In this document: piece by piece, positions 4,458-43,636 of the stretch
Position numbering within the stretch: the stretch's first letter is position 1
Layout of the letters: every line of letters starts with the position of its first letter
From: an uncultured Myxococcales bacterium
GTDB taxonomy: Bacteria; Myxococcota_A; Polyangia; Palsa-1104; JAEUJZ01
Direction: 5' to 3'
DNA length: 64,000 nt
Assembly (NCBI GenBank): GCA_964537055.1
Contig: CAZHYV010000004.1
Span: 46,172 to 110,171, forward strand
Made by a program: the position numbers and the translations under genes
Notes under the pieces: generated by a model
Databases searched by the model: none
What the model saw: the letters and a program-made list of their open reading frames with translations, nothing else
Told to the model about the DNA's origin: nothing

Positions 4458-5615
4458 ATGCTGCAAAGATTATGTAAGCTCCCAGAGAAAAGGTCATTTT
4501 TCCTCTTTGGTGCCCGTCAAACCGGAAAAACCACCTTGGTCCGCTCTCTTTTATCCCCACAGGACTGGGCAATCGATCTATTAAAAAATGATACTTACTT
4601 CTCCTATAAAAAAGATCCTTCTCTCTTTCGTAGAGAAGCGGAAAAAAAGATAGCAAATCAGCCCTCTTTACGAATCATGATTGATGAGATTCAGAAAGTC
4701 CCTGAGCTTCTTTCTGAAGTACATTATCTCATTGAGCAATATCCCGGTATCCAATTTATGATGACGGGATCAAACGCTCGGAAGCTAAGAAGAGGCGCAG
4801 CAAACCTACTAGCAGGAAGAGCTTTCAGTAGAATGTTATTTCCGCTCACGTATCAAGAAACTGCCCCACAGTTCCACCTAGAAGACACCCTGCTCTACGG
4901 CTCTTTGCCCGCTGTTTTATCTTTATCTCCAACAGACAAACGAGATTTTTTAAGGGCTTATACTGACACCTATTTAAAAGAAGAAATCCAGGCTGAAGCT
5001 TTGGTTAGAAATCTAGGGGGATTTCATCGCTTCTTAGAAGTCGCCTCTGCTCAATGCGGTGAGACGATTAATTTTGCCTCCATTGCGAGAGAAAGCGGAA
5101 TTGCTTCGCGTACGATCCAAAGTTATTACGAAATTCTAGAAGACACATTGATCGGTTTTCGATTAGAGGCTTGGAGGAAGAGTGCTCGCAAACGACTTTT
5201 GGAACATCCAAAATTCTATCTTTTCGATACAGGGGTTACGAATGCTATCAATCATCGTTTAGAAGGAAGGCTAGACCCTGTCCAAAAAGGAAGGTTATTT
5301 GAACAATTTATTATTTTAGAAACGGTGAGGATGCTTTCTTATCAGCAAAGTGACATACGGGCTTATTATTGGAGAACCAACCATGGGGCTGAGGTAGATT
5401 TGGTCTTAGAAAAAAACAATGATCTGATTGCAGGGATTGAGATCAAATCATCTCGAGAGATTGCTAGAGCTGATCTGACCGGGCTTCGCTCCCTGAAAGA
5501 GGATTATCCCCATGCAAAATCGTTCATTGTTTCGCAGCTTCCGCACAGCTTCGACCTTGATTTTGCGACTGTATTGTCGTTTCAAGATTATTTTCAGTGG
5601 TTATTAACCCAATAG
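4458..5615 (+). CDS. AAA+ ATPase of the AAA_14 + DUF4143 family
   Basis: Walker A GARQTGKTTL near the N-terminus and a ~385 aa architecture typical of this family. Paralogous to 8488..9615. Confidence 0.8.
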   Translation: MLQRLCKLPEKRSFFLFGARQTGKTTLVRSLLSPQDWAIDLLKNDTYFSYKKDPSLFRREAEKKIANQPSLRIMIDEIQKVPELLSEVHYLIEQYPGIQFMMTGSNARKLRRGAANLLAGRAFSRMLFPLTYQETAPQFHLEDTLLYGSLPAVLSLSPTDKRDFLRAYTDTYLKEEIQAEALVRNLGGFHRFLEVASAQCGETINFASIARESGIASRTIQSYYEILEDTLIGFRLEAWRKSARKRLLEHPKFYLFDTGVTNAINHRLEGRLDPVQKGRLFEQFIILETVRMLSYQQSDIRAYYWRTNHGAEVDLVLEKNNDLIAGIEIKSSREIARADLTGLRSLKEDYPHAKSFIVSQLPHSFDLDFATVLSFQDYFQWLLTQ

Positions 5616-5655
5616 GAAATCTCTTGAACTTATACACTCTGTCTTCATTTTCCAA

Positions 5656-5821
5656 AGGAGGTGGGGCGCAATATTTGCCCAATTGAATCGTTCCGTAAAC
5701 GTTCCGTAAGGATTTTTCGAAGGATGTACCCGATCGGGCAAACATGCTAACTGCTTGAAATTGTTACTAAAAAATCGGGGCGAGAGGATTTGAACCTCCG
5801 ACCCCCAGACCCCCAGTCTGG
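5656..5821. repeat. direct repeat copy B (overlaps the 3' half of tRNA-Pro and ~120 bp downstream of it)
   Basis: Aligns with 2928..3076. Contains an internal cgttccgtaa duplication relative to copy A. Confidence 0.8.
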
Positions 5822-5849
5822 TGCGCTAACCAGGCTGCGCCACGCCCCG
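5775..5849 (-). tRNA. tRNA-Pro (anticodon GGG)
   Basis: Cloverleaf read by eye. Acceptor CGGGGCG/CGCCCCG, D-stem GCGC, anticodon stem CCAGA/TCTGG with loop CTGGGGG, T-arm GGAGG-TTCAAAT-CCTCT, discriminator A, no encoded CCA. Confidence 0.85.
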
Positions 5850-6080
5850 AAAAGTAAAGTGGTTTTATCAGCAATACGCTTTGCCGTCAAGGATTGTTCC
5901 ATAAGCCTCCAGAAAATCTAGCGTCCCCTTCCAGATACCCCTGTAGACTACCTCAAGGCCAGAGCATTCGTGAGTCAGCTGTTGCAAAACGCGCTTCCAG
6001 CCAGCGATGGCCCGTCCCCTTCTGGCCCTTTTCTTATAAAATTCATACCTTAGCCGCCAAGAATCTGCTATAACTCACGA

Positions 6081-7361
6081 ATGCGTTCGTCGCGAATTCC
6101 AGGGTTTTTCCAAATGCCGGCCGAGCTTAGGCGGAAAGAGATTGCCACACGCTGCAAGCTATCCCAAGAAGAAGTGGATCATCTTCTCATGACAGGCCTT
6201 GATTTTTCCACCGCAGACCGAATGACCGAAAATGTCGTTGGTCTATTTAAGCTTCCTCTTTCGATTGCTACCAATTTCCAAATCAATGGAAAAGACTACC
6301 TCATTCCTCTTTGCATCGAAGAACCCTCGGTGGTTGCCGCCGCCTCCAGAGCAGCCCTTTTGGTCCGAGAGGGTGGTGGCTTTTCGGCTACTTCCGACCC
6401 ACCTGTTATGATTGGACAGGTTCAACTACTCGAGGTAAAGGATACGAAAGCGGCCAAAGAATCGCTCCTTGCTAGGCAAGATGAACTTATTTCTCTTGGG
6501 AACCAGATGGTGCCTTCCCTGGTTCGTCGTGGGGGCGGCTTGCGAGGAATCGAAGTACGTATTCTCACAGAAAGCCCATCCCCTCCTCGTCAAGCTACAG
6601 AACCACATCTTTCCTTCTCTACGACCTCAACCACGAAAGCCTCATCCTCAGTCATCTCATCCACAAGAGCCCTATCTCCTGGACAAACATCTTCCGGCGA
6701 AATGGTGATCCATCTTCTGGTTGATTGCCAAGATGCGATGGGTGCCAATCTGACCAACCAAGTCGCAGAATCTTTGGCCCCAAGGCTTGCCGAGCTTTCG
6801 ATGGGTCGCGTGGGACTACGCATCCTATCGAATCTTTCAATCTATCGGAAAGTCCAAGCAAAGTGTACCATTCCTGTAAGCACGCTTGCCTATCAATCTT
6901 TCTCAGGCGAAGAAATGCGAGACCGTATCATTTCGGCAAGTGATTTTGCCAAAAAAGATCCCTTTCGAGCAGCCACCCACAACAAAGGAATTATGAACGG
7001 GGTAGATGCGCTAGTGATCGCGACGGGGAATGATTTCCGTGCCGTAGAAGCAGGCGCACATGCCTACGCATCACTCTCGGGGAACTACCAGCCACTCGCC
7101 ATTTGGAGTAAAAGCAAAGAAGGGCACTTACAGGGAGAGCTAGAGATGCCTCTCTCGCTTGGAACCAAAGGAGGAACCCTTGCCGCCAGAAGGGATGTAG
7201 CCTTGGTACTTAAAATTCTCGAAATAGAGTCCGCCCAAGAACTTTCTCAGGTGGCTGGATGTGTAGGCCTTGCCACCAACCTTTCTGCGCTCCGGGCTCT
7301 TTCCAGTGGGGGCATCCAAAAAGCCCATATGCCTCTCCATTACCGATCAATCGCAAAATAG
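6081..7361 (+). CDS. mvaA: class II (NAD(P)H-dependent) HMG-CoA reductase with a Ser/Thr-rich low-complexity insertion
   Basis: ENVVG, DAMGAN and GTKGG-type motifs are present. It is collinear with Pseudomonas mevalonii HMGR except for a ~40 aa S/T-rich insert before the DAMGAN block. Confidence 0.85.
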   Translation: MRSSRIPGFFQMPAELRRKEIATRCKLSQEEVDHLLMTGLDFSTADRMTENVVGLFKLPLSIATNFQINGKDYLIPLCIEEPSVVAAASRAALLVREGGGFSATSDPPVMIGQVQLLEVKDTKAAKESLLARQDELISLGNQMVPSLVRRGGGLRGIEVRILTESPSPPRQATEPHLSFSTTSTTKASSSVISSTRALSPGQTSSGEMVIHLLVDCQDAMGANLTNQVAESLAPRLAELSMGRVGLRILSNLSIYRKVQAKCTIPVSTLAYQSFSGEEMRDRIISASDFAKKDPFRAATHNKGIMNGVDALVIATGNDFRAVEAGAHAYASLSGNYQPLAIWSKSKEGHLQGELEMPLSLGTKGGTLAARRDVALVLKILEIESAQELSQVAGCVGLATNLSALRALSSGGIQKAHMPLHYRSIAK

Positions 7362-31502: not shown

Positions 31503-33263
31503 TTAAGAAGAAATACGACTCATGGCTTCCTTCAGAAGAAGCTCTATCTCTTTTCCATCGTCAAGCTGCAAAGCTTGTTCAGCCAAAGCCGTAGCCTCTT
31601 TGAAAGTAACCTGATTAATAATATGTTTTGCCTGAGGGATTGAAGCCGGATTCATCGAAAGCTCATCCAAGCCCAAACCTAAAAGCAGTGGCACAAACAT
31701 AGGATTTCCAGCCATTTCTCCACACAGCGAGACCTTTCTCTTATACTTATGGCCCTGCTCTACCGTCATCCGGATCATTCGGATGATTGCTGGATGCAGT
31801 GGATCGTATAATGCCTCTACGTGCTCGTTGGCTCGATCTAAAGCCAAAGTGTATTGAACCAAGTCGTTCGTACCGATGGAGAAAAAGTCTACCTCCTTGG
31901 CCAAATGATCTGCCACTATGACTGCAGAGGGCATCTCGATCATAATCCCCAAAGAAAGATTCTTGCGATAGGGAATTCCCTGCTTCTCTAGTTCTTCCTT
32001 ACATTCTTCAAGCATCGCCTTTGCTTCTCGAACATCATTCAATCCTGATACCATCGGAAGCATCAGCCTCATGTCTCCATACACTGATGCCCGCAATAGT
32101 CCCCGAAGCTGCGTTTTAAATAAAGTTTTTTCCCGTAAGCAAAGGCGTAGAGAGCGTAGTCCTAGGGCAGGATTGAGCTCAGAGGAGAAAGGTATCATTC
32201 CTAGACGGCCCGTCAAAAAAGGCGGCAGCTTATCTGTCCCTAGATCAAAGGTACGAAATGTAGCAGGCCGGTTTCCCAATTGGAGAAGCACCTCTTTCGT
32301 ATAAAGAAAATGCTCTTCTTCCGTAGGATCTGTGGTTCGGTCTAAGAACAAAAATTCTGTTCGGTAAAGACCGATCCCTTGGGCCCCAAATTGCAAAGCG
32401 AGCGAGACCTCTTCGTGAAATTCAATATTGGCAACAAGCTGAAGACGATGATGATCTAGGGTTTCAGCCTGTTTGTCTTTGTTCTTCTTTAGCATTTCAA
32501 ATTGGGCGTGCTGATTATCAATCTGGGTTTGATACATTTGAACCAATTCAGGGGACGGAGCACAAAGAATTTTTCCTGTAGAACCATCGACGATCAGTAA
32601 ATCCCCGGTTCCTAACTGATCGATGGTCTCCCCAATTCCTACAACGACAGGGATTTGGAATGCTCTTGCTAAGATCACCATATGAGATGTCCGTCCACCG
32701 GTCGCAGTAATTACAGCTAAAACCTGCTGCTGGTGCAGGGAAACCAAATCAGAGGGCGATAACTCATAAGCAACAACGATTGATTGGGGGGGAGGTTGAA
32801 CCGGTTTGTCTGGCTCTTTTCCTAAGAGGTTGTGCAAAACCTGTTCACCGACAAACCCAATATCACTTCTGCGTTCTCTTAGGTGCTCAATCCCAATGGC
32901 ATCAAATCTACGCTTTAGATCCTCCATGGTCTTTTGGAGTGCCCACTCTGCATTCAATAGCTCTTTTTGAATCCGTTCATACGTGGGCAAAAGAACATGC
33001 TCATCATGTAAGATGAGTCGATAAGCTTCTAAAATTCCTATGTGGGTGAGATTCGAGCCTTTTGGGTCAAACTTGGTCTTTAGTTGTTCAAACTGATTAT
33101 CTGCAAGAAGAATGGCCTGTTTGAGGCGAAGAATTTCCTCCTCAATCTGTTCCAAGGCAATGTGATACTTAGGAATTTGTAGCCGTCTGCGATCCACAAA
33201 AAAAGCGGTTCCCACCGCAAGACCTGGGGATGCACCAATGCCCTGAATTTGATCTGGCTTCAT
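31503..33263 (-). CDS. ptsI: phosphoenolpyruvate-protein phosphotransferase (PTS enzyme I)
   Basis: Full-length EI architecture with a conserved His in GGRTSHMVILAR. Confidence 0.9.
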   Translation of the reverse strand: MKPDQIQGIGASPGLAVGTAFFVDRRRLQIPKYHIALEQIEEEILRLKQAILLADNQFEQLKTKFDPKGSNLTHIGILEAYRLILHDEHVLLPTYERIQKELLNAEWALQKTMEDLKRRFDAIGIEHLRERRSDIGFVGEQVLHNLLGKEPDKPVQPPPQSIVVAYELSPSDLVSLHQQQVLAVITATGGRTSHMVILARAFQIPVVVGIGETIDQLGTGDLLIVDGSTGKILCAPSPELVQMYQTQIDNQHAQFEMLKKNKDKQAETLDHHRLQLVANIEFHEEVSLALQFGAQGIGLYRTEFLFLDRTTDPTEEEHFLYTKEVLLQLGNRPATFRTFDLGTDKLPPFLTGRLGMIPFSSELNPALGLRSLRLCLREKTLFKTQLRGLLRASVYGDMRLMLPMVSGLNDVREAKAMLEECKEELEKQGIPYRKNLSLGIMIEMPSAVIVADHLAKEVDFFSIGTNDLVQYTLALDRANEHVEALYDPLHPAIIRMIRMTVEQGHKYKRKVSLCGEMAGNPMFVPLLLGLGLDELSMNPASIPQAKHIINQVTFKEATALAEQALQLDDGKEIELLLKEAMSRISS

Positions 33264-33532
33264 TCGTCCTCTCCAAATCGGTTTTGGATCAGTTCCGTGA
33301 GTGCTTGTAGACAGGTTTCTGCCTGAGGCCCCTCACATTGAATCCGAATCTGGCTTCCCAAGCTTGCCACCAAAAGCAATACACCCATGATGCTTTTTCC
33401 ATTCACTCGTTGCCCATCTTTTTCAATCCAAACTTCGCATGGATAACGATTTGCCGTCTGCACAAACTTGGATGCTGCCCGTGCATGAAGACCAGCACGA
33501 TTAATAATCTTAAGCTGTGCCTCAACTAGCAT
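33260..33532 (-). CDS. ptsH: phosphocarrier protein HPr
   Basis: His15 context GLHARAA and Ser46 context KSIMGV. Overlaps the ptsI start. Confidence 0.9.
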   Translation of the reverse strand: MLVEAQLKIINRAGLHARAASKFVQTANRYPCEVWIEKDGQRVNGKSIMGVLLLVASLGSQIRIQCEGPQAETCLQALTELIQNRFGEDE

Positions 33533-33613
33533 AAATTTATTCCTTCTTTTATAAAAAGCGCAACTTTTCTAGAAATATCCATACATATAGCTTGGACACA
33601 AAGGAAGCTAGGT

Positions 33614-34009
33614 TTATTCATGATGGATGCTTTTAGTTCCCGTCGCCACAAGATCATCACCAAGCGCAACAGGCCCTCTTTGTCTATCCACGGTGGCCAG
33701 CTTGATCAGCATAGGCATATTTACGCCGGTGACCACATGCCCCTGTTCAGAGCACTTATGGCAGCACAAACGCGCAGGAGTCGAACCTACCAAATCAACG
33801 AGAAAAAGAACATCTTCGCGGTCCGAGACCAAAAGGCTCTTTAATGCTTCATCAATCTTTTTATCAATCGCCTCGCTGGTATCTTGTGGTTCTACACCAA
33901 CGGTCGCAAGGCCTGGTATTTTCATGTGCAAAAATGATTGGGCGGCTTCTACCATATCAGCCCCAGCTTTTCCATGAGTGACAAGCACAACTGCAGTTAA
34001 AGACACCAT
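33614..34009 (-). CDS. PTS EIIA component, mannose/fructose family
   Basis: VTHG active-site His; LVDLVGSTP and VTGVNMPML blocks. Confidence 0.75.
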   Translation of the reverse strand: MVSLTAVVLVTHGKAGADMVEAAQSFLHMKIPGLATVGVEPQDTSEAIDKKIDEALKSLLVSDREDVLFLVDLVGSTPARLCCHKCSEQGHVVTGVNMPMLIKLATVDRQRGPVALGDDLVATGTKSIHHE

Positions 34010-34037
34010 AACCTATATAATAAATCCTTTCCTCTAT

Positions 34038-34997
34038 TTACTCAACGGCCCCGGAAAAATCACCGGCGCTCCCTTGCATCAACACCTGGTTGAGACGCTC
34101 CTGAAATTCACGGGCAGAAAATGTTCCCTGACGTTTTAACAGCTGGTTTCGGGCAGCCACCTCAACAAGTGAGCTAATGTTTCTACCCGGCCTTACAGGT
34201 ATGCGAACTAAGGGCAAAGCTACATCTAAAATGGCATACCTTCGTTCCTCTGTTCCTAAACGATCATACTCTTCCTCAGGATCCCATTCGACAAGCTCGA
34301 TCACAAGTTCAACCCGCTTTGCGTCGCGTACTGCGGCAACCCCGAATAAATCTTTAATGTTCAAGATCCCCAAACCCCGAATCTCGATATGATGCTTGAT
34401 GAGGGTAGAACCCATTCCGTATAATTGATCAGGAAGGTTTTTCCAAATACGGATGACATCATCGGCGACCAACCGATGCCCTTGTAATACCAGGTCTAAG
34501 GCTGTTTCACTTTTTCCAATCCCTGATTTTCCTAACAGAAGAATTCCTACTCCAAAGACGTCGGTGAGCACACCATGAATCGAAACTGAGGGGGCCAATG
34601 TATTTTCTAGGAATTTTGTTACCCGGTTAATAAATACAGATGACATGAGGGGGGTGGTCAGGAGGGGCACCCGGTATTCCTCCGCCATCTTTACAAAGTC
34701 AGAAGGAACCTCTAAGTCTCGAGTGATCACGACTGCACAAGGACGAAGGCTGACAAGCGCTCGGATTCCTGCGATTTGTTGCTCTTTCGGAAGACTGAGT
34801 AGGTAGGCATGTTCGGTTTGTCCTAAAACCTGTAACCGTTCTGGGTGGACGTGTTTTACAAACCCAGTCAAAGCCAAACCAGGTTTTTGGATGCGAGAGT
34901 TTTTAATCAACCCATCAAGCCCCTGCTGACCAGCAATTAGACTCAGTGCAAGGTCTGCATCCTTCCCAAGAAGGCGTGTCACGGAAATTCCTATCAT
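34038..34997 (-). CDS. hprK: HPr kinase/phosphorylase
   Basis: Walker A GKSGIGKSE plus LVADD. Confidence 0.9.
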   Translation of the reverse strand: MIGISVTRLLGKDADLALSLIAGQQGLDGLIKNSRIQKPGLALTGFVKHVHPERLQVLGQTEHAYLLSLPKEQQIAGIRALVSLRPCAVVITRDLEVPSDFVKMAEEYRVPLLTTPLMSSVFINRVTKFLENTLAPSVSIHGVLTDVFGVGILLLGKSGIGKSETALDLVLQGHRLVADDVIRIWKNLPDQLYGMGSTLIKHHIEIRGLGILNIKDLFGVAAVRDAKRVELVIELVEWDPEEEYDRLGTEERRYAILDVALPLVRIPVRPGRNISSLVEVAARNQLLKRQGTFSAREFQERLNQVLMQGSAGDFSGAVE

Positions 34998-35151
34998 GTT
35001 CTCAGCCTCTTTTTTGAGCTACCTTGTAGAGAATGATCTTCCATTGCGCTCTTTCGAGAAGGTCATCCCCTTAAGGGAATCAAAATTTGTTCTAACAACC
35101 AGGTCTAAGGGATTGCTGAAGCATTTTGTGTCTTGCATGCGAACCTGTAGA

Positions 35152-35742
35152 CTACGTCGCTCGAGAAGATTCCTCATGGGTGGTTTCAATCAGCCCATAC
35201 GAACCATCTTGGCGATGATAGACAACATTAACCTCATGTGTATTTGCATTGTTGAAGCAAAGAAACTGCTCATGCGTCAGGTTCATATGCATGATGGCTT
35301 CTTCAACCGTCATGGGTCTTGCGATATACTTTTCTTCTTTAATAATCTTTGGCGTTTTTGCAGAGTTGGAAACAGGTACATCCTGGACTTGTTGGGATTC
35401 TAGAGTAACAACTTGGTGTCGGATAATTCTCTCAGGGCCGCTTCTAGGACGATGATCTCGGATACGTTCTTTATACTTCCGTACTTGTCGTTCTATTTTT
35501 GCAACAACAAGGTCTATCGAAGAATACATATCTTCAGTGGTTTCTACAGCCTTCAATAAAATCCCGTTGTGAAGAGTAATTTGTACATCAGCAACATGGG
35601 AATGGCTATTCTCAAACGAGAGCACTGCATGTGCTGAGATAGGGTCGGGAAAATACTTACGAATTTTCTCCAATTTTTCTTGGGTATAAACCTTCACTGC
35701 CTCGCTAGGTTCAAGATGACGGAAGGTCACAGCGACCTGCAT
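35152..35742 (-). CDS. hpf: ribosome hibernation promoting factor (long form)
   Basis: Conserved N-terminal RaiA/HPF domain; ~196 aa with a C-terminal dimerisation extension. Confidence 0.85.
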   Translation of the reverse strand: MQVAVTFRHLEPSEAVKVYTQEKLEKIRKYFPDPISAHAVLSFENSHSHVADVQITLHNGILLKAVETTEDMYSSIDLVVAKIERQVRKYKERIRDHRPRSGPERIIRHQVVTLESQQVQDVPVSNSAKTPKIIKEEKYIARPMTVEEAIMHMNLTHEQFLCFNNANTHEVNVVYHRQDGSYGLIETTHEESSRAT

Positions 35743-35966: not shown

Positions 35967-36971
35967 TTACTGGGACCATAAGCTCAGGGCAAAACCATAG
36001 GCATGTAGAAGGAACTCATTGCCCGGAGAAAGTGTGATCATACTTGGTTTCGATATGGGACCGAGATTCAGAGACTCATCGCCTGTATTAACGTTGTAAA
36101 AGCGCACGGTCCGCCCAGCAACTGCTACAGACTCTTCAGAAGAGGATAGGGCTACGGAAAGAACATCTCCATCTGTTTCAATCTGCTGCACCAAATGGCT
36201 GTCTTTGACCCGCCATAGGGTCAAAAAACTTCCGCTGCCACTAAATAGAAACTCGCCGTGTTTAGAGAATTTGAGGTCCCCTATCGCCTGGGATTTTGTC
36301 TGCTTGATCCGCATCCGTTTCCAGGTCTTGGTATTCCAAATGTCGATGATGCCATTCCTTCTCCCGGCTGCTGCCCATGTTCCCTGATCCGAAAGCACTA
36401 CTTTGGTCACACACGACCCACCCGCAGATAAAACCCGCAAGCGTTTCCCACGGTCTGCATCCCAAAGATAGACAGTCCCTCTATCTCCTCCAGATAAAAG
36501 CAACCGGCCGGACCCATCGAACGATAGAGTGGAAACAAAATCATTCGCTCGATGACCTGTCCATACTTTAAGTTCCTTCTGGGTATTCAGGTCCCAAATG
36601 TGAATGTCACGCCAGTCGTAATCATCTGCACGCCGAGAGAAGGCAACACGCAAACCATGGGAAAGAGCAATGGCTGTGGAATAAAAGCCAACCCTGATCG
36701 ATTTTCCGATCTCTTTTCGCGTATGAGAATCAAAGGTCCGCACAGCTCCTTTGGACCCGGCAGAGATAAATTTTGTTCCATCGGTGGAGAACGCAATGGC
36801 TAAAATTTCCCCATCGTCCGGTAAGTGAAGAGTCCACGTCCACGGAAGTTGAGGTCCTTCCTTACTAGACTCAGCTGAGGCGGCTCCGATAAGAGGCCCG
36901 AGAAAAGCAAAGACAAAGAAGAGGAAAAATGGGAGCATGCGGAATCGGGTTAATTTCATGATTAAGGCCAT
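35967..36971 (-). CDS. secreted WD40-repeat beta-propeller protein
   Basis: Signal peptide and at least five WD-like repeats (for example IHIWDLNTQKE, VYLWDADRGK, IDIWNTKTWK). Confidence 0.7.
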   Translation of the reverse strand: MALIMKLTRFRMLPFFLFFVFAFLGPLIGAASAESSKEGPQLPWTWTLHLPDDGEILAIAFSTDGTKFISAGSKGAVRTFDSHTRKEIGKSIRVGFYSTAIALSHGLRVAFSRRADDYDWRDIHIWDLNTQKELKVWTGHRANDFVSTLSFDGSGRLLLSGGDRGTVYLWDADRGKRLRVLSAGGSCVTKVVLSDQGTWAAAGRRNGIIDIWNTKTWKRMRIKQTKSQAIGDLKFSKHGEFLFSGSGSFLTLWRVKDSHLVQQIETDGDVLSVALSSSEESVAVAGRTVRFYNVNTGDESLNLGPISKPSMITLSPGNEFLLHAYGFALSLWSQ

Positions 36972-38369: not shown

Positions 38370-40442
38370 CTACCAAGTGTACGTCGGGCTCTTTGCGCTA
38401 TCGTTGAAAAAAACAAAGAGGCGGTTTTGTTCTCTAAAGCCTATCCACCCATGAACCAAAACGTCCTTCTGCCCATCTCCATCAAAATCACCTACCAGCG
38501 GCGGAAGACACCCTGCCTCTTCAGAAAAGCTGACTCGGCTTGTTCCCTCATCGTACCCATCGTCCTCCAAGCTAGCAAAAACGACGAGGCCGTTGCATGC
38601 GGGAACATTTTCAAGCTCCAATATATCTGGATATCCATCCTCTGTGATGTCATCGATGGCAGTCGTCCTCAGATTTTCCAACCGTACTTTGGCAGACCTT
38701 AAGGTTCGGAGATTTTTCTGCTCATCAAGGGCAAGAATATTGGCCCGATAAGATAATAGTGTAGAAGAAAAGCCACTTTTTTCCCAGGAAAGTTGGTTTA
38801 AATCGATCGCAAAAAGGGCGGGTTTCGCCTGATGCATATAGGATTTCACAACAAACCCGTCGAATACACCTCCTGCGTCCTTAGGCTGATAGTCCACAGT
38901 CGAGAATTGAAACCCTCCACGCTCTTGCCCTAAGACGAGTTTTACAGCTGCCCGCGATTGAAAGATCAGATCTTCCTGCCCATCTTGGTTGATGTCTAAT
39001 ACATCCACGAATTCGCTATCTTTCAGGAAGCCGCTTTTATCATCCCCTAGCAGGGTGAGAGGACTAAACTCTCCAGGTGTCTTGGTACCCCACATGACGC
39101 CCCATTGTGGACGTGAAAGAAAACCTGAAAGAACAAAGAATAGATCCCTTTGACCGTCATGGTTAATATCCAATACTTTGGTAGCAGAAACAGGCTGTGG
39201 AAAGGGATAATTCGGAATTTTTATTTTGGTAACTCCCATCAAGCTACTCGTTAACAGAAGAATGTACATCTCCTCTTTATCATCACTTTTCGTGCGCACG
39301 AGCAGATCAAGATAACGATCACTGTTGGCATTCATTGGAACCAGTTCAACAATAGGATCTGCCATCGAAAGAATAGCGCTTTTCTTAAGCTTCCGATCTG
39401 CATCTCCCCAAAAGATCTGAAGTTGCTTCTCTCCAACAACAATAGCATCACTTTTTCCATCTTGGTCGATATCCTTCACAAGTACTTGGGAAATCCGTTG
39501 AAAGTCGGGGGTTAAAGTGAGTGGTTCTTTTGCGAGAGTGACTGTCTTTCTTAGGAGGGGATAGCTTAGATTTTCAATTGATGGGAAATGTTTCAAATAA
39601 TAAGAAGGATATTCACGATCCTCTTTCATCTTCGAGAGAAGAGGTGGAAGGGAATAGATTGAGTAAAATTTACTCTCCATTGCTCCAGCAATAGATGCTA
39701 CTTCATCTCTTTTAAAATACGTTTGGTTTTCGCGACGGTTCCCCTGCATAAAGCCCCATAGGAGTCCAATTTCCCAACCACAAGGACCATCCATACCGAC
39801 ATCTGCCCTTGGAAGGAAGGGAGTGAACTCTGGTAAATAGACCTGGTGCTGACCTGTCTCACTATGTCTGGCTTCATGAAGCAGAAGCGTAGCCATCTCA
39901 ACCGCATCCCCTCGCTCCTCTCTTAACCTCATCTCCTCATTCTTATTGAGAATTTCCGCTGGAATAAGCTCCTCTCGGTTCTCACAAATATGGATCGCCT
40001 CCGGGGTATAGTAAGACGTATTGGTAAGAGAGTTGCATCCGTACCGTATCTCTAATGATGCGTTCAGAATATAATTGAACATTTCTTGGTTCAGATTCTT
40101 ATCTGGGTCCCGAACAAATCGTTCATAAAAATCAAACATCCCGGCTTCTTTTATGGTACCAAGCCCAAACATTTTTTTATCTTTGGGAAAAGCAAGGGGG
40201 CTCGTGAGTAAAAGGTGAAGCGCTCTGATTATATCTTGCTTCTCTTTTGGATGAGCTTCAAAAGAAGCTACATCGATCGGCGCCATCCGTGTGATTACCT
40301 CATCGCAACCGTGAGTCAACTCCCCCTGACAAGTCCCAGTTGCGGTAATTTCACTATAAAAATCCTTCTGGCAGGCCACAAACAGGAAACTGCTGAATAT
40401 TGAAAAAATCCACAAATCGTATTTGTTCAATAACATGATCAT
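38370..40442 (-). CDS. lipoprotein with an N-terminal Cys-rich domain bearing HEARHSETGQH (HExxHxxxxxH, metzincin-like spacing) and C-terminal FG-GAP repeats
   Basis: ATG at 40442 (the ORF-track start is TTG). Lipobox FVAC. FG-GAP-like DIDQDGKSD, DINHDGQRD, DINQDGQED, DITEDGYPD, DFDGDGQKD. C-terminus SPTYTW. Confidence 0.7.
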   Translation of the reverse strand: MIMLLNKYDLWIFSIFSSFLFVACQKDFYSEITATGTCQGELTHGCDEVITRMAPIDVASFEAHPKEKQDIIRALHLLLTSPLAFPKDKKMFGLGTIKEAGMFDFYERFVRDPDKNLNQEMFNYILNASLEIRYGCNSLTNTSYYTPEAIHICENREELIPAEILNKNEEMRLREERGDAVEMATLLLHEARHSETGQHQVYLPEFTPFLPRADVGMDGPCGWEIGLLWGFMQGNRRENQTYFKRDEVASIAGAMESKFYSIYSLPPLLSKMKEDREYPSYYLKHFPSIENLSYPLLRKTVTLAKEPLTLTPDFQRISQVLVKDIDQDGKSDAIVVGEKQLQIFWGDADRKLKKSAILSMADPIVELVPMNANSDRYLDLLVRTKSDDKEEMYILLLTSSLMGVTKIKIPNYPFPQPVSATKVLDINHDGQRDLFFVLSGFLSRPQWGVMWGTKTPGEFSPLTLLGDDKSGFLKDSEFVDVLDINQDGQEDLIFQSRAAVKLVLGQERGGFQFSTVDYQPKDAGGVFDGFVVKSYMHQAKPALFAIDLNQLSWEKSGFSSTLLSYRANILALDEQKNLRTLRSAKVRLENLRTTAIDDITEDGYPDILELENVPACNGLVVFASLEDDGYDEGTSRVSFSEEAGCLPPLVGDFDGDGQKDVLVHGWIGFREQNRLFVFFNDSAKSPTYTW

Positions 40443-40480
40443 AAAATCCCCCACAGGCTTGCTCGCCTCCAAAGGGATCT

Positions 40481-41329
40481 TTAAAATAAAAATCCCGTTG
40501 TCAATCCTACAAAAATTCCTTCAAGCAATGTCTTGTTCCCTGTATTGTAAAGAATGTGATACCGAGCATCACCTTGCAAATAGAAAAACATAGGTTTACT
40601 TACGGGTAATTTTGGAGCAAACCTTAGTCCAAATTCAAACCAAGACTCAGAAAGAAGACTCCCAAAACTCCCCGGCGCATCCGGTCTTCCATCTCCACTT
40701 TTGCCAACGGATACATCTGATGACAGCTCTGCAAAAAGGCTGAAGGATATTTTTTGATTTCCCATCTTGACGTCGCATCCAGGCGCGAGACCAAGCAGAT
40801 GGATTCCTGTAAAGGGCTCAGACGTCCCAAATGCCCTCCAGCTTTTTACCCCTACTGCTTGTCCCCGAATGCCACAGCCTCCCTCTGCCCATTGATTCTT
40901 GCGGCGGAATTCTACCTTGCCATGACCTAGAGACACAACGACCAGAGATTCTGTGTCCATCCGCTTTGGGTTCCGGAAATAACGAATCACTCCCCCTCCC
41001 CAGGATAGCCACTCTTTCGCCTGAAATCGAACTATCGTGGTTTCAACACTTGCGTAAGGGATGTAGTGTTCATAATCGTTTGGACCAAACGCCAGTCGAA
41101 CCTTTGTTTCGGCAGCATGGCACTGAAACTTGCCACATAGCTTGGGAAAATCAAACGCCGCCCCAAACTGGGCATCCAGCAAAAATCCTAACTGGGTTCG
41201 TTGAGGAATCACCAAGAGCCCTACCCCTACCTTGGTTTGCTCCCAGGTAGCTGCGTGTGTAGGAGAAGACTGCATACACATTATGATCACTAAGCAGGTT
41301 GAAAATAGGCAGACAGAAATTTTCCTCAC
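40481..41329 (-). CDS. predicted outer-membrane beta-barrel protein
   Basis: Signal peptide ending AHA-A. C-terminus ...GLTTGFLF with a terminal Phe and alternating hydrophobics. Confidence 0.5.
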   Translation of the reverse strand: MRKISVCLFSTCLVIIMCMQSSPTHAATWEQTKVGVGLLVIPQRTQLGFLLDAQFGAAFDFPKLCGKFQCHAAETKVRLAFGPNDYEHYIPYASVETTIVRFQAKEWLSWGGGVIRYFRNPKRMDTESLVVVSLGHGKVEFRRKNQWAEGGCGIRGQAVGVKSWRAFGTSEPFTGIHLLGLAPGCDVKMGNQKISFSLFAELSSDVSVGKSGDGRPDAPGSFGSLLSESWFEFGLRFAPKLPVSKPMFFYLQGDARYHILYNTGNKTLLEGIFVGLTTGFLF

Positions 41330-41428
41330 AGGTCTTTTATAGCATGATTCCCGTCTTTGATTAAAAGAAAATTTTTCAAGGCTACAGCATACCTACGTGG
41401 CTGATCCTTCTCACAGCTTGGCTGTTGC

Positions 41429-43462
41429 TCACCAAGTATACGAAGGGCTCTCTTTCCCCTCATGGAAAAAAATAAAGACCTGCTTCTTACTGGTGAGAAC
41501 GGCAATATCTTTATACCCATCCCCATTAAAATCTCCCACGATAGGAGAAGCCGAAAGGAAGGTGTTCTCCGAGCTTTCTGCATTAAGCAGAGGAATATTT
41601 TTATCAAGATACCCCTCTCCATTCATGCTTGTAAAAATTTTTATTTGAACTCCATTATACGTCCTCTGAGAAGATAAAATCTCGGGATACCCATCTCCTG
41701 TAAAGTCGTCAACGGCAAAGTTTATATTTTTGCCAGGATTCTCGCCTGATGTCTGTGAATACAAGGTGGATTTTTTCATAGGCTCCTGGGAGATAGGAAC
41801 CGGAAGCGCGTTCATGGTTTGGATGAAAAAGGGCCCCTTCTTACCTGCTAGTTCTGTTACTGCACTTTCGTTGATAGAGATAAGAGGATATTTTTGGCCT
41901 TGGCCTAAGTAGAAAAGAAAGAACGCTCTTGCCTCTGTGGAGTCTTGAGAGAAGGGATCTATCTTCTGGAAGTGAAATTTCTGCCCCGAGGCACCGAGCC
42001 CTAGGATCACACTGGTTTGTGAGCAAAAAATAAGATCCTCATAACCATCTTGGTTGATATCACTTAGGGTATGAAGCACACTGTCCTGAAGTAGATCCTC
42101 TGCATCCCACCCCCATAAAGTGAGAGGATGAAATTCTCGAGGGTTTTGAGATCCTAAACGCACACCCCAGCTCCGATCCGAAAAGTAATAGAACAGATCT
42201 TTCTGTCCGTCTCTATTAAGGTCGGCAATCTTTACAGAGAGGATAGACGGCCGCTCCACGTCAGCGGCAACTTCTATAAGGTCTGCCGATGATTCTTTCC
42301 CCGCGATCGGAAGAAAGTACGTTTTCTCGATTGAGGTAATTACAAGACCTCGATACTGAGGATCAGCATGGTCGAGGAAGTCGACGTTTGTAATCTCTTC
42401 TTCCATTTCAATCTTCTGCCCCCCTTCCAAGGTACGATTCGTGCTGCCAAAGAGAACCTGGATTTCCTTCTCACCTACCACGACGAGATCAAGCGTTCCG
42501 TTATGATCGATGTCTTTCCCAAAGCCTTTCTCAGTTACTTTTTCTACTTCGCTTGTAAAAGATTGTGCTTTATCTGGGAATACAACCATTGATATCATTG
42601 AGGGATAATGCAGACTTTCCACAAGCGGAAAATTCCTACGGTAGTCCTGGAAGAATGTCTTTTGCGAAACAGGCGGTAGAAATACCTCGGGAGGCGCAAA
42701 AATATAACCAAATCTGGTTTGCAATCGGTCAATCAGTTTCTTCAGGGTATCCCGGTCAAAATAGGGCACCTTGGCCTGATCATTTCCATGAAAAAATCCC
42801 CATAATAGCGCAGCTTCCCAGCCAAAGGGACCATCAAGTCCCACATCTCCTCGGGGTACAAGCGGAGTCGAGGAGGGCACGTAAACTTGGTGCTGCCCTG
42901 TCTCGCTATGTCTCGCTTCATGGAAGAGCAAAGTTACTGTCATAATAAGATTTTTCTCCTGGGTCTCGTCAGAGATATTCTTTGTTTGTTGCTCGGTAAA
43001 ACAAACATGGATCGCCTCGGGCGTGTAGAAAGAAACCCCTGTCACCGAGTTACATTCATACCGAATTTCTTGGGCTGCATTAAAAATATAATTGAGGATG
43101 GCTTGGTTGATGGAAGGAGTGGGCTCTTTTACAAAGCGCTGATAAAAATCATTCATGCCTGCCTCCTGCCATGTGCCTAATCCAAAGATTTTTTTATCCT
43201 CTGGAAATGCAATCGGTGCGGTCAGAAGCAGATGAATCGCTTTCACCACTCTTTGTTCAGCCCCAGGATGGTCTACAAAGGATTCCAGATCAAGAGGTGC
43301 ATTCGAAACAATCGCCTGGTAACAATCCTCGGTAAGTTCTCGTCCACAAGTCCCCGCTTCAACAATGTTTGTATAATAGTCTTTCTTACAAGAACTGAGG
43401 CCATAGCTCATAGAAAAAAGTCCTAGAGACAAGAGAATCTTGATGGGGAAAGATTTTATCAT
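41429..43462 (-). CDS. lipoprotein paralogue of 38370..40442 (HEARHSETGQH motif + FG-GAP repeats)
   Basis: Lipobox LSSC. The same conserved blocks are present (GTCxxELTxxC, RYxCNS, TLLxHEARHSETGQHQVY), and the C-terminus is SPSYTW. Confidence 0.7.
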   Translation of the reverse strand: MIKSFPIKILLSLGLFSMSYGLSSCKKDYYTNIVEAGTCGRELTEDCYQAIVSNAPLDLESFVDHPGAEQRVVKAIHLLLTAPIAFPEDKKIFGLGTWQEAGMNDFYQRFVKEPTPSINQAILNYIFNAAQEIRYECNSVTGVSFYTPEAIHVCFTEQQTKNISDETQEKNLIMTVTLLFHEARHSETGQHQVYVPSSTPLVPRGDVGLDGPFGWEAALLWGFFHGNDQAKVPYFDRDTLKKLIDRLQTRFGYIFAPPEVFLPPVSQKTFFQDYRRNFPLVESLHYPSMISMVVFPDKAQSFTSEVEKVTEKGFGKDIDHNGTLDLVVVGEKEIQVLFGSTNRTLEGGQKIEMEEEITNVDFLDHADPQYRGLVITSIEKTYFLPIAGKESSADLIEVAADVERPSILSVKIADLNRDGQKDLFYYFSDRSWGVRLGSQNPREFHPLTLWGWDAEDLLQDSVLHTLSDINQDGYEDLIFCSQTSVILGLGASGQKFHFQKIDPFSQDSTEARAFFLFYLGQGQKYPLISINESAVTELAGKKGPFFIQTMNALPVPISQEPMKKSTLYSQTSGENPGKNINFAVDDFTGDGYPEILSSQRTYNGVQIKIFTSMNGEGYLDKNIPLLNAESSENTFLSASPIVGDFNGDGYKDIAVLTSKKQVFIFFHEGKESPSYTW

Positions 43463-43636
43463 AGGTCCTCACACAGCGATGTAGTCTTAGATAGAAGGCA
43501 GCGGCTTTATTGTACACCAAATCGCTTAGAATTTTCTATGAAAAGAAGGTTTTCCGGGGAAAGGATGGGCGGGAAACAAAGCACTCCCAAAATTCGATTG
43601 AATTCTCCCACGAATCCGCTATTCTCTTAGCCACGT

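What the first reader, a model, noticed from the sequence alone, without database searches (positions are those of the whole stretch)
38370..43462. Three-gene envelope module: two paralogous metzincin-motif + FG-GAP lipoproteins flanking an outer-membrane beta-barrel
Both large lipoproteins, at 38370..40442 and 41429..43462, share an N-terminal ~300 aa Cys-rich domain with conserved blocks: GTCxxELTxxC, LHLLLTxPxAFPxDKKxFGLGT, EIRYxCNS, YTPEAIHxC. Both also carry an invariant TLLxHEARHSETGQHQVY block, in which HExxH plus a third His at +6 reproduces metzincin spacing (HExxHxxGxxH) with the Gly shifted. This domain is followed by about five FG-GAP Ca-binding repeats and an identical SP(T/S)YTW C-terminus. 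Between the two lies a signal-peptide protein ending GLTTGFLF, a typical beta-barrel C-terminal signature. I do not recognise the N-terminal domain as a named peptidase family. Together this could be a surface protease/adhesin pair with a dedicated outer-membrane partner.
Basis: partly seen in the sequence, partly recalled or inferred. Interest (0 to 1): 0.8.

Follow-up and report, generated by a model that had tools for sequence, protein, structure and literature searches.

The report
Putative metalloprotease lipoproteins with barrel partner
Three co-oriented genes encode two related envelope lipoproteins, each joining an unclassified zinc-protease-like domain to a calcium-binding propeller, plus a small secreted protein that is probably an outer-membrane barrel; the protease-like gene and the barrel-like gene sit together at other loci too, but no function has been tested.

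Summary
Three intact minus-strand genes lie at 43462..38370. The two large proteins are paralogues (36% identity overall, 48% in the N-terminal domain). Each has a lipobox, a ~275-aa Cys-containing domain with HEARHSETGQH, five DxDxDG FG-GAP loops and an SP(T/S)YTW end.

No Met-turn is conserved, so this is a new zincin-like family, not a demonstrable metzincin.

The middle protein has a signal peptide, strong beta-type amphipathic periodicity and a conserved GΦxF-COOH end. I could not model it. Clear homologues (E 1e-40, 1e-30) lie directly beside stand-alone HExxH-domain genes on two other contigs, and a remote one on a third. The "dedicated partner" idea therefore gains support.

Named-genome relatives are mainly Bdellovibrionota. 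Function is inferred, not shown.

The parts
41429..43462 (-). Gene B: 677-aa lipoprotein made of a zincin-like N-domain and an FG-GAP propeller
   Evidence: ORF. GAGGA lies 3 nt before the ATG. The public gene call of 660 aa starts at Met18 and would remove the signal peptide.
43388..43462 (-). B signal peptide with lipobox LSSC (Cys25)
   Evidence: Read from the translation: basic n-region (K3, K8), hydrophobic core, L-S-S-C.
42563..43387 (-). B N-terminal HExxH (zincin-like) domain, residues 26-300
42890..42922 (-). B motif HEARHSETGQH (H181, E182, H185, H191)
   Evidence: Coordinates. The four residues are invariant in 49/49 sequences. They sit at the C-terminal end of helix 140-163 of the model, with the third His just after it.
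41432..42517 (-). B FG-GAP region with five DxDxDGxxD loops
   Evidence: Pfam FG-GAP_3 at 67.0 bits and FG-GAP at 39.1 bits. Loops at residues 317, 414, 468, 586 and 644.
40481..41329 (-). Middle gene: 282-aa secreted beta-rich protein, probable outer-membrane beta-barrel of an unnamed family
   Evidence: ORF. No Pfam, NCBIfam or PDB hit. Homologues lie next to HExxH genes in L060, L061 and L058. Beta-type amphipathic periodicity: 0 of 500 shuffles reach the observed value.
41252..41329 (-). Middle-protein signal peptide (residues 1-26, ...PTHA|AT)
   Evidence: Read from the sequence. Homologues also have basic plus hydrophobic N-termini. The public 266-aa call from Met17 lacks it.
40484..40513 (-). 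Middle-protein C-terminal strand FVGLTTGFLF, a beta-signal-like G-Phi-x-F-COOH
   Evidence: G279 and F282 are invariant in the five-member alignment A7. The ends are GFLF, GLAF, GIEF, GVLF(+tail) and GFKF(+NQ).
38370..40454 (-). Gene A: 690-694-aa lipoprotein paralogue of B
   Evidence: ORF. BLASTP against B gives E 5e-150. GGAGG and candidate starts GTG 40454 and ATG 40442.
40371..40454 (-). A signal peptide with lipobox FVAC (Cys24, counted from ATG 40442)
   Evidence: Read from the translation.
39519..40370 (-). A N-terminal HExxH (zincin-like) domain
   Evidence: 48% identical to the B domain. Matches the A3 HMM with E 1.5e-74.
39846..39878 (-). A motif HEARHSETGQH (H189, E190, H193, H199)
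38373..39485 (-). A FG-GAP region with five DxDxDGxxD loops
   Evidence: Pfam FG-GAP_3 at 78.8 bits and FG-GAP at 42 bits. Loops at residues 324, 425, 483, 598 and 652.
43509..43538 (-). Weak sigma-70-like promoter match upstream of B, in the divergent intergenic region shared with lepA
   Evidence: 9 of 12 matches, and no more such sites than in shuffles, so only suggestive. Gaps of 99 nt (B to middle) and about 26 nt (middle to A), with no convincing terminator between the genes, fit one operon.

Best explanation
This is a three-gene operon for an extracytoplasmic enzyme system. A and B are paralogous lipoproteins. In each, a previously unclassified zincin-like metallohydrolase domain is fused to a Ca2+-binding FG-GAP beta-propeller. 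The predicted metal ligands are the two His of HExxH plus the invariant His six residues later, and the Glu is the likely general base. The propeller most likely binds the substrate or a surface ligand. The gene between them encodes a signal-peptide protein of about 256 mature residues from an unnamed family. It is most likely a 10-12-stranded outer-membrane beta-barrel that works physically with the HExxH lipoproteins as an anchor, surface-exposure device or substrate conduit. The most probable activity is zinc-dependent peptide-bond hydrolysis in the periplasm or on the cell surface of a Bdellovibrionota-like bacterium.

Shown: the gene structure, the paralogy, the motif invariance, a confident helix-borne HExxH, the FG-GAP repeats, and the recurrence of the HExxH-gene plus middle-family-gene pairing.

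Inferred: metal binding, hydrolase activity, the barrel fold, outer-membrane location, physical partnership and taxon.
For: The family has 49 representatives, with H156, E157, H160 and H166 the only invariant columns. Most members carry the canonical HEARHGDGxxH.

The AF2 model has pLDDT 93.1 and pTM 0.90, with HExxH at the end of helix 140-163 and the third His three residues after it.

Lipoboxes, and conserved Cys pairs in a protein with an export signal, fit an extracytoplasmic location.

For the middle protein: a signal peptide and a conserved G-Phi-x-F-COOH end. Alternating hydrophobicity occurs in 16.9% of windows against 4.3 +/- 2.2% in column shuffles, with 0 of 500 shuffles reaching the observed value.

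For the pairing: middle-family homologues lie immediately downstream of the HExxH gene P0008 in L060 (E 5.5e-40), immediately upstream of P0011 in L061 (E 1.5e-29), and divergently beside P0010 in L058 (pairwise E 7e-5).
Against: No catalytic or metal-binding data exist.

The middle family hits no OMP family in Pfam, NCBIfam or the PDB, and the mature protein has four Cys.

Three of the four loci that show the pairing come from one sample (SRR11567520). They may be paralogous copies in a single genome, so the independent evolutionary support is thinner than four loci suggests. A pair of FG-GAP paralogues in L005 lacks the middle gene. None of the ~300-aa relatives in named genomes has a middle-family neighbour.
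Confidence: 0.55

Rival explanations
1. The HExxH domain is a metal enzyme but not a peptidase. It could be an oxygenase like the alpha-ketoglutarate/Fe HExxH hydroxylases (ChlH, SjiH), or a hydrolase acting on a non-protein envelope substrate such as peptidoglycan, lipid or polysaccharide.
Against: The NCBIfam library, which to my knowledge includes the alpha-KG-HExxH model TIGR04267, gave no hit. The proteins carry lipoprotein export signals and conserved Cys pairs, so they sit outside the cytoplasm, where alpha-ketoglutarate and Fe(II) are not expected (inference). No RiPP precursor, radical-SAM or other biosynthetic gene is nearby. The remaining weak matches, structural and sequence, are all peptidases.
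Confidence: 0.15
2. A and B are mainly adhesins or structural surface proteins. The HExxH domain would then be a metal-binding or binding module without turnover, and the operon a surface-display unit rather than an enzyme system.
Against: The catalytic Glu is invariant in all 49 first-copy domains, together with the three His, across sequences down to about 20% identity. That pattern is typical of active enzymes. Both paralogues keep the full motif after long divergence (48% identity in the domain).
Confidence: 0.12
3. The middle protein is not an outer-membrane barrel or not a dedicated partner. It could be a soluble periplasmic beta-rich protein such as an inhibitor, chaperone or substrate of the HExxH enzymes, or a co-located gene with an independent role.
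For: No structure was obtained. There is no match to any OMP family. The mature part has four Cys. In two homologues the G-Phi-x-F motif is followed by extra residues. Protease-inhibitor gene pairs are common (own knowledge).
Against: The C-terminal G-Phi-x-F, with Phe as the last residue in three of five members, matches OmpX-type beta-signals (own knowledge of OMP C-termini). There is significant strand-like alternation of hydrophobicity across about 10-12 segments. The size suits a 10-12-stranded barrel. Adjacency to HExxH genes at several loci argues against an independent role.
Confidence: 0.3

Closest known systems
Metzincin metallopeptidases (e.g. the astacin-family enzyme myroilysin, M12A)
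   Same: Most family members have the exact HExxHxxGxxH spacing, and A and B keep His at +6. The motif helix ends at a Gly followed by the third His. A helix-then-strand element (NQxxFNYxLN...I.Y) precedes the motif and aligns weakly with myroilysin (E 0.14).
   Different: No conserved Met-turn: at most 9 of 49 sequences have Met in any column after the third His. The Gly is shifted by one residue in A and B. Only two short strands precede the active-site helix in the model, with a hairpin after it. There is no significant sequence or Foldseek similarity. A large N-terminal helical subdomain is unlike metzincins.
Minimal zincins of the WLM/Wss1 type (HExxHx5H)
   Different: Wss1 proteins are intracellular eukaryotic proteases that repair DNA-protein crosslinks. 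They share no detectable sequence similarity, have no lipoprotein signal, no Cys pairs and no propeller.
Alpha-ketoglutarate-dependent HExxH hydroxylases of RiPP pathways (ChlH, SjiH; IPR026337)
   Different: They are cytoplasmic, often fused to radical-SAM domains and encoded in RiPP clusters. The window proteins are exported lipoproteins in a housekeeping neighbourhood and do not match the family model.
Aspzincins (M35: deuterolysin, peptidyl-Lys metalloendopeptidase)
   Different: The aspzincin third ligand is the Asp of GTxDxxYG, nine residues after the second His. Here an invariant His sits at +6 and the conserved Asp at +21. No hit is significant.
Lipoprotein plus beta-barrel envelope pairs (e.g. 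LptE-LptD, RcsF-OmpA/C/F, Slam-dependent surface lipoproteins); analogy from own knowledge
   Same: A lipoprotein gene and a barrel-like gene are genetically coupled, and the coupling recurs.
   Different: There is no sequence relationship to any of these. The middle protein, at about 256 mature residues, is much smaller than LptD or Slam. No interaction has been shown.

Membership tests
Zincin-fold HExxH metallohydrolases (broad sense) | HExxH on an alpha-helix, conserved across homologues | tested here: met
   H, E and H are invariant in 49/49 sequences. The motif lies in helix 140-163 of a model with pLDDT 93.
Zincin-fold HExxH metallohydrolases (broad sense) | A third metal ligand positioned to complete the site | tested here: inconclusive
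   The His at +6 is invariant and follows the end of the helix.
Zincin-fold HExxH metallohydrolases (broad sense) | Overall fold similarity to solved zincins | tested here: inconclusive
Zincin-fold HExxH metallohydrolases (broad sense) | Metal-dependent hydrolytic activity | not testable with these tools
   Requires biochemistry.
Metzincin clan | Extended motif HExxHxxGxxH | tested here: inconclusive
   A and B have HEARHSETGQH: His at +6 is kept but the Gly sits one residue late. Most distant relatives have the exact HEARHGDGxxH.
Metzincin clan | Conserved Met-turn downstream of the third His | tested here: not met
   No column after H166 has Met in more than 9 of 49 sequences.
Metzincin clan | Five-stranded sheet in the N-terminal subdomain | tested here: not met
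   DSSP of the model shows only short strands at 107-110 and 125-128 before the helix and a hairpin at 168-181 after it.
Alpha-KG-dependent HExxH hydroxylases (IPR026337/TIGR04267) | Match to the family model, and a cytoplasmic RiPP-cluster context | tested here: not met
FG-GAP / VCBS beta-propeller repeats | Pfam FG-GAP_3/FG-GAP above gathering score, and DxDxDGxxD Ca-binding loops | tested here: met
   78.8 and 67.0 bits against a cut-off of 26.9. Five loops in each protein. Ca2+ binding itself was not tested.
Bacterial lipoproteins | Signal peptide ending in a lipobox [LVIF]-x-[GAS]-C | tested here: met
   LSSC (B, Cys25) and FVAC (A, Cys24) follow hydrophobic cores. Many relatives also have a Cys after the h-region. 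No dedicated predictor was run.
Outer-membrane beta-barrel proteins | N-terminal signal peptide and a C-terminal beta-signal ending in an aromatic residue | tested here: met
   Signal peptides are present in the full-length members. G279 and F282 are invariant, and Phe is the last residue in three of five members.
Outer-membrane beta-barrel proteins | An even number of amphipathic transmembrane strands forming a closed barrel | tested here: inconclusive
   Alternating hydrophobicity is significantly enriched (0 of 500 shuffles; z 2.7 for the single sequence), but no 3D model could be made.
Outer-membrane beta-barrel proteins | Homology to a known OMP family | tested here: not met
   No Pfam, NCBIfam or PDB hit for the single sequence or the profile.

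The most novel reading that the evidence does not exclude
The N-domain founds a new family of active zinc peptidases (a new MEROPS-level family), found mainly in Bdellovibrionota and their relatives. In one clade it has co-evolved with a new family of small outer-membrane barrels. The result would be a lipoprotein-barrel surface protease machine, here doubled and armed with Ca2+-binding propellers, possibly used to attack or remodel cell envelopes, including those of prey.
Probability: 0.3. Interest if true: 0.6.

Novelty: new variant of a known kind. Interest (0 to 1): 0.42.

Why it matters
If the domain is an active metallopeptidase, it adds an uncurated peptidase family. Its named-genome relatives are mostly Bdellovibrionota (Bdellovibrio, Bacteriovorax, Oligoflexus and related lineages), with a more distant version in Leptospira. 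These groups live by degrading other cells or host tissue. The repeated genetic coupling to an equally uncharacterised barrel-like protein would define a new lipoprotein-barrel envelope module. It also offers a concrete pair for testing how such bacteria display hydrolases on their surface. It does not bear on a long-standing open question, and nothing here departs from the known logic of exported zincins.

Tried and rejected
- AF2 on the two paralogues alone gave pLDDT 35 and was useless, costing one of the two structure jobs.
- The word-indexed protein search found nothing for the N-domain or its 49-sequence profile, not even the query itself. For the middle protein it found only the query.
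- A genome-contig scan with the FG-GAP-clade alignment found nothing, and the 49-sequence alignment was too divergent to make patterns.
- Viral-contig scans with both families found nothing.
- Foldseek against the PDB and BFVD gave no significant hits. afdb50 was not available.
- PDB sequence and profile searches returned nothing for the middle family and the propeller, and only non-significant hits for the N-domain.
- Exact look-ups for P0005, P0007 and P0009 were not on record.
- Cluster look-up gave no names or accessions.
- Literature searches found no description of this family or of sample SRR11567520.
- Rfam found only one tRNA elsewhere in the window.
- I considered and rejected mobile-element or horizontally acquired origin: base composition is flat and the flanking genes are housekeeping (lepA, signal peptidase, a dicarboxylate symporter).
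- I rejected strict metzincin membership and alpha-KG-HExxH membership.


Full report
**What is there**

The region holds three intact ORFs on the minus strand:
- B, 43462..41429, 677 aa.
- A middle gene, 41329..40481, 282 aa from a GTG start.
- A, 40442 (or GTG 40454)..38370, 690-694 aa.

The gaps are 99 nt and about 26 nt. No convincing terminator lies between the genes, and a GAGGA or GGAGG precedes B and A. The cluster is transcribed divergently from lepA and converges on a dicarboxylate-symporter gene. Base composition is flat across the window, so nothing suggests a mobile element.

The public gene calls for the same DNA start B at Met18 (660 aa) and the middle gene at Met17 (266 aa). 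Both calls would delete the signal peptides. The longer starts are supported by the RBS of B and by hydrophobic N-termini in homologues of the middle protein.

**Checking the observation**

A and B align over their full length: 36% identity, E 5e-150, and 47-48% identity in the first ~300 residues.

HEARHSETGQH is at 42922..42890 in B and 39878..39846 in A. Both proteins have lipoboxes (LSSC, FVAC). Both have five DxDxDGxxD loops and FG-GAP_3/FG-GAP Pfam hits well above threshold. Both end in SP(S/T)YTW.

**The N-terminal domain**

It matches nothing in Pfam, NCBIfam or PDB sequences.

An exhaustive HMMER search of 1.84 billion cluster representatives, using a profile of the two domains, found 49 proteins with E<=1e-3 and 21 with E<=1e-10. 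They fall into three groups:
- FG-GAP fusions like A and B.
- Stand-alone proteins of about 300 aa, mostly with lipobox-like N-termini.
- Proteins of about 500 aa with a second, degenerate copy of the domain.

None of ten sampled members hits a Pfam family. The only traces are motif-level, sub-threshold hits to the putative metallopeptidase DUF6782.

In the 49-sequence alignment the only invariant columns are H156, E157, H160 and H166, which are H181, E182, H185 and H191 of B. Near-invariant positions are C22, P58, G69, N94, C180, D181, G189 and G201. Most distant members read HEARHGDGxxH, the exact metzincin spacing. The Cys170-Cys180 pair, present in 43-45 of 49 sequences, is replaced in A, B and their two nearest relatives.

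**Structure**

With the 49-sequence alignment, AlphaFold2 gave a confident model: mean pLDDT 93.1, pTM 0.90. With two sequences it had failed.

HExxH lies at the C-terminal end of a long helix (residues 140-163), and the third His comes three residues after the helix ends. Two short strands precede the helix, a hairpin follows it, and helical subdomains flank both sides.

ChlH-type enzymes are alpha-ketoglutarate/Fe hydroxylases. The literature describes them as having a fold reminiscent of zincin proteases (PMC12636437).

A profile search of PDB sequences gave only non-significant hits, again all metallopeptidases: myroilysin at E 0.14 and peptidyl-Lys metalloendopeptidase at E 0.34.

I could not read the model coordinates, so convergence of the three His is inferred from the secondary structure and not measured. 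No Met is conserved after the third His.

My reading is that this is a new zincin-like family with an HExxHx5H site. It resembles metzincins and WLM proteases in its ligand pattern. It is not a demonstrable metzincin, and it is not a member of the alpha-KG-HExxH family: there is no model hit, the proteins are exported lipoproteins, and no RiPP genes lie nearby.

**Distribution**

Patterns from the ~300-aa subfamily found 52 loci among GTDB species representatives. Most titles name Bdellovibrionota: Bdellovibrio, Bacteriovoracaceae, Halobacteriovoraceae, Oligoflexus, Peredibacter and an isolate "Bdellovibrionota bacterium FG-1". Some are Leptospira or other Spirochaetota.

Only three loci (L006-L008) match most of the domain. 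The rest share the catalytic core only (profile positions ~140-240). They represent a wider HEARHxDG superfamily of 350-400-aa proteins in Bdellovibrionota and ~230-aa proteins in Leptospira. This wider group also lacks any Pfam or NCBIfam family.

The FG-GAP-fused clade was found only in metagenomes. The window's own taxon is not given anywhere. A Bdellovibrionota-like origin is an inference from this distribution.

**The middle protein**

Alone, it has no family or PDB match and no relatives in the word-indexed search.

Exact look-ups of the HExxH relatives then supplied homologues:
- On contig L060, a 290-aa ORF (phmmer E 5.5e-40) lies immediately downstream of the stand-alone HExxH gene P0008. 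A partial second copy (E 9e-19) is at the contig start.
- On L061, a 288-aa ORF (E 1.5e-29) lies immediately upstream of the stand-alone HExxH gene P0011.
- On L058, from a different sample with 39% GC, a more remote, collinear relative (pairwise BLASTP E 7e-5) lies divergently beside the FG-GAP fusion P0010.

The five-member alignment shows N-terminal signal peptides and the conserved motifs YxPY, RNP[KR]xLDT, PFxG and SVGxSGxGxPDxPGxFGSLL. The C-terminal G-Phi-x-F is invariant, and Phe is the last residue in three members. From my own knowledge, this resembles OMP beta-signals such as the ...GYRF end of OmpX.

Column-averaged hydrophobicity alternates with period 2 in 16.9% of 8-residue windows, against 4.3 +/- 2.2% after shuffling columns; 0 of 500 shuffles reach the observed value. 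The single sequence has the highest beta-minus-alpha amphipathic moment of the 38 long ORFs in the window. By eye there are about 12 candidate strands in 256 mature residues.

I put the barrel at about 0.7.

**Synteny verdict**

The exact B-middle-A arrangement was seen only in the window and in its identical Logan copy L001. The core pair, an HExxH-domain gene next to a middle-family gene, recurs in both orders: HExxH then middle in L060, and middle then HExxH in L061. The window looks like the two orders joined together.

Two caveats apply. L060, L061 and L005 come from the same sample as the window copy and have similar GC, so they may be paralogous loci of one genome. The FG-GAP pair in L005 is convergent with no middle-family gene, and no ~300-aa relative in a named genome has such a neighbour.

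**Mechanism**

The most likely reading, at about 0.55, has three parts:
- A and B are membrane-anchored, exported zinc hydrolases, probably peptidases. The three His would bind the metal and E182/E190 would activate water.
- The Ca2+-binding propellers recruit the substrate or a surface ligand.
- The middle protein is an outer-membrane barrel that works with them.

Rivals:
- A non-peptidase metal enzyme, including an oxygenase like the best structural match (0.15).
- A mainly adhesive or non-catalytic role (0.12).
- A middle protein that is soluble, for example an inhibitor or chaperone, or that is functionally independent (0.3 for that component).

**Novelty and score**

Both families are uncurated and apparently undescribed, and their coupling is new. 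The logic is familiar, though: an exported HExxH hydrolase, a binding propeller and an envelope partner. No function is shown. I rate it a new variant of a known kind, with interest 0.42.

Noticed in passing
window 43411..43462 and 41282..41329; L001 7871-9853 and 10001-10801: Public gene calls for this DNA start B at Met18 (660 aa) and the middle gene at Met17 (266 aa). Both calls cut off the predicted signal peptides, so the proteins would look cytoplasmic in automated annotation.
   Followed up: partly
L009-L057 (e.g. L012 4783-5433 next to 5437-6585; L011 4718-5317 next to 5317-6609): A wider HEARHxDG superfamily shares only the catalytic core: 350-400 aa in Bdellovibrionota and ~230 aa in Leptospira. 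In 31 of the 47 loci that carry this wider family, a conserved gene of about 200-240 aa lies beside the HExxH gene. That neighbour has an N-terminal membrane anchor, a low-complexity linker and a C-terminal domain with two Cys. It was not scanned against any family library, and its function is unknown.
   Followed up: partly
P0012-P0017, P0027 (metagenomic relatives, about 485-615 aa): Several relatives carry two tandem copies of the domain. Only the first copy keeps HExxH; the second has lost it (for example IEKARSSEV in place of LHESRHSEY). This looks like an enzyme plus pseudo-enzyme pair within one polypeptide.
   Followed up: partly
window 38373..38390 and 41432..41449; C-termini of P0005, P0006, P0007 and the second gene of L005: Two clades of the FG-GAP fusions end in a conserved [FW]N.G...[YFV][TVI]W-COOH tail with Trp as the last residue. 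This could be the closing strand of the propeller or a recognition or docking signal. It is unexplained.
   Followed up: no
window 43370..43387 and 40353..40370; alignment A3 columns 1-12: A D-[YFP]-Y-[ST] motif lies 2-6 residues after the lipid-modified Cys and is conserved across much of the family. It is modelled as the first helix of the domain, so there is essentially no flexible tether between the lipid anchor and the fold.
   Followed up: no
L005 5854-7875 (+) and 7945-9969 (-): The same sample as the window copy holds another pair of HExxH/FG-GAP paralogues (48% identical to each other). They are convergently arranged, have no middle-family gene, and sit beside a WYL-domain regulator and a glyoxalase gene.
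   Followed up: partly
L060 799-1614 (-) and 1800-2384 (+): Two more unannotated secreted proteins lie between a partial middle-family paralogue and the HExxH gene P0008: a 194-aa Cys-rich putative lipoprotein, and a 271-aa protein with a signal peptide and a Gly-rich C-terminal hydrophobic segment. They may be further module components.
   Followed up: no
L004 392-1405 and 1327-1917; L016, L051, L052, L056, L013, L025: Genes for the HExxH domain often occur as tandem paralogues, two or three in a row, in groundwater and Bdellovibrionota genomes.
   Followed up: no
window 35967..36971 (-): Just beyond the symporter gene lies a 334-aa protein with a signal peptide and WD40-like repeats (my reading of the sequence; not scanned). 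Further along is an hpf - hprK - PTS EIIA - HPr - EI cluster at 31503..35742.
   Followed up: no
alignment A3 positions 170 and 180 (B residues 195 and 205): A Cys pair flanking the hairpin after the third His is present in 43-45 of 49 family members. In A, B, P0004 and P0005 it is replaced by Val/Leu and Gly/Ala, which suggests this clade lost a disulfide.
   Followed up: partly
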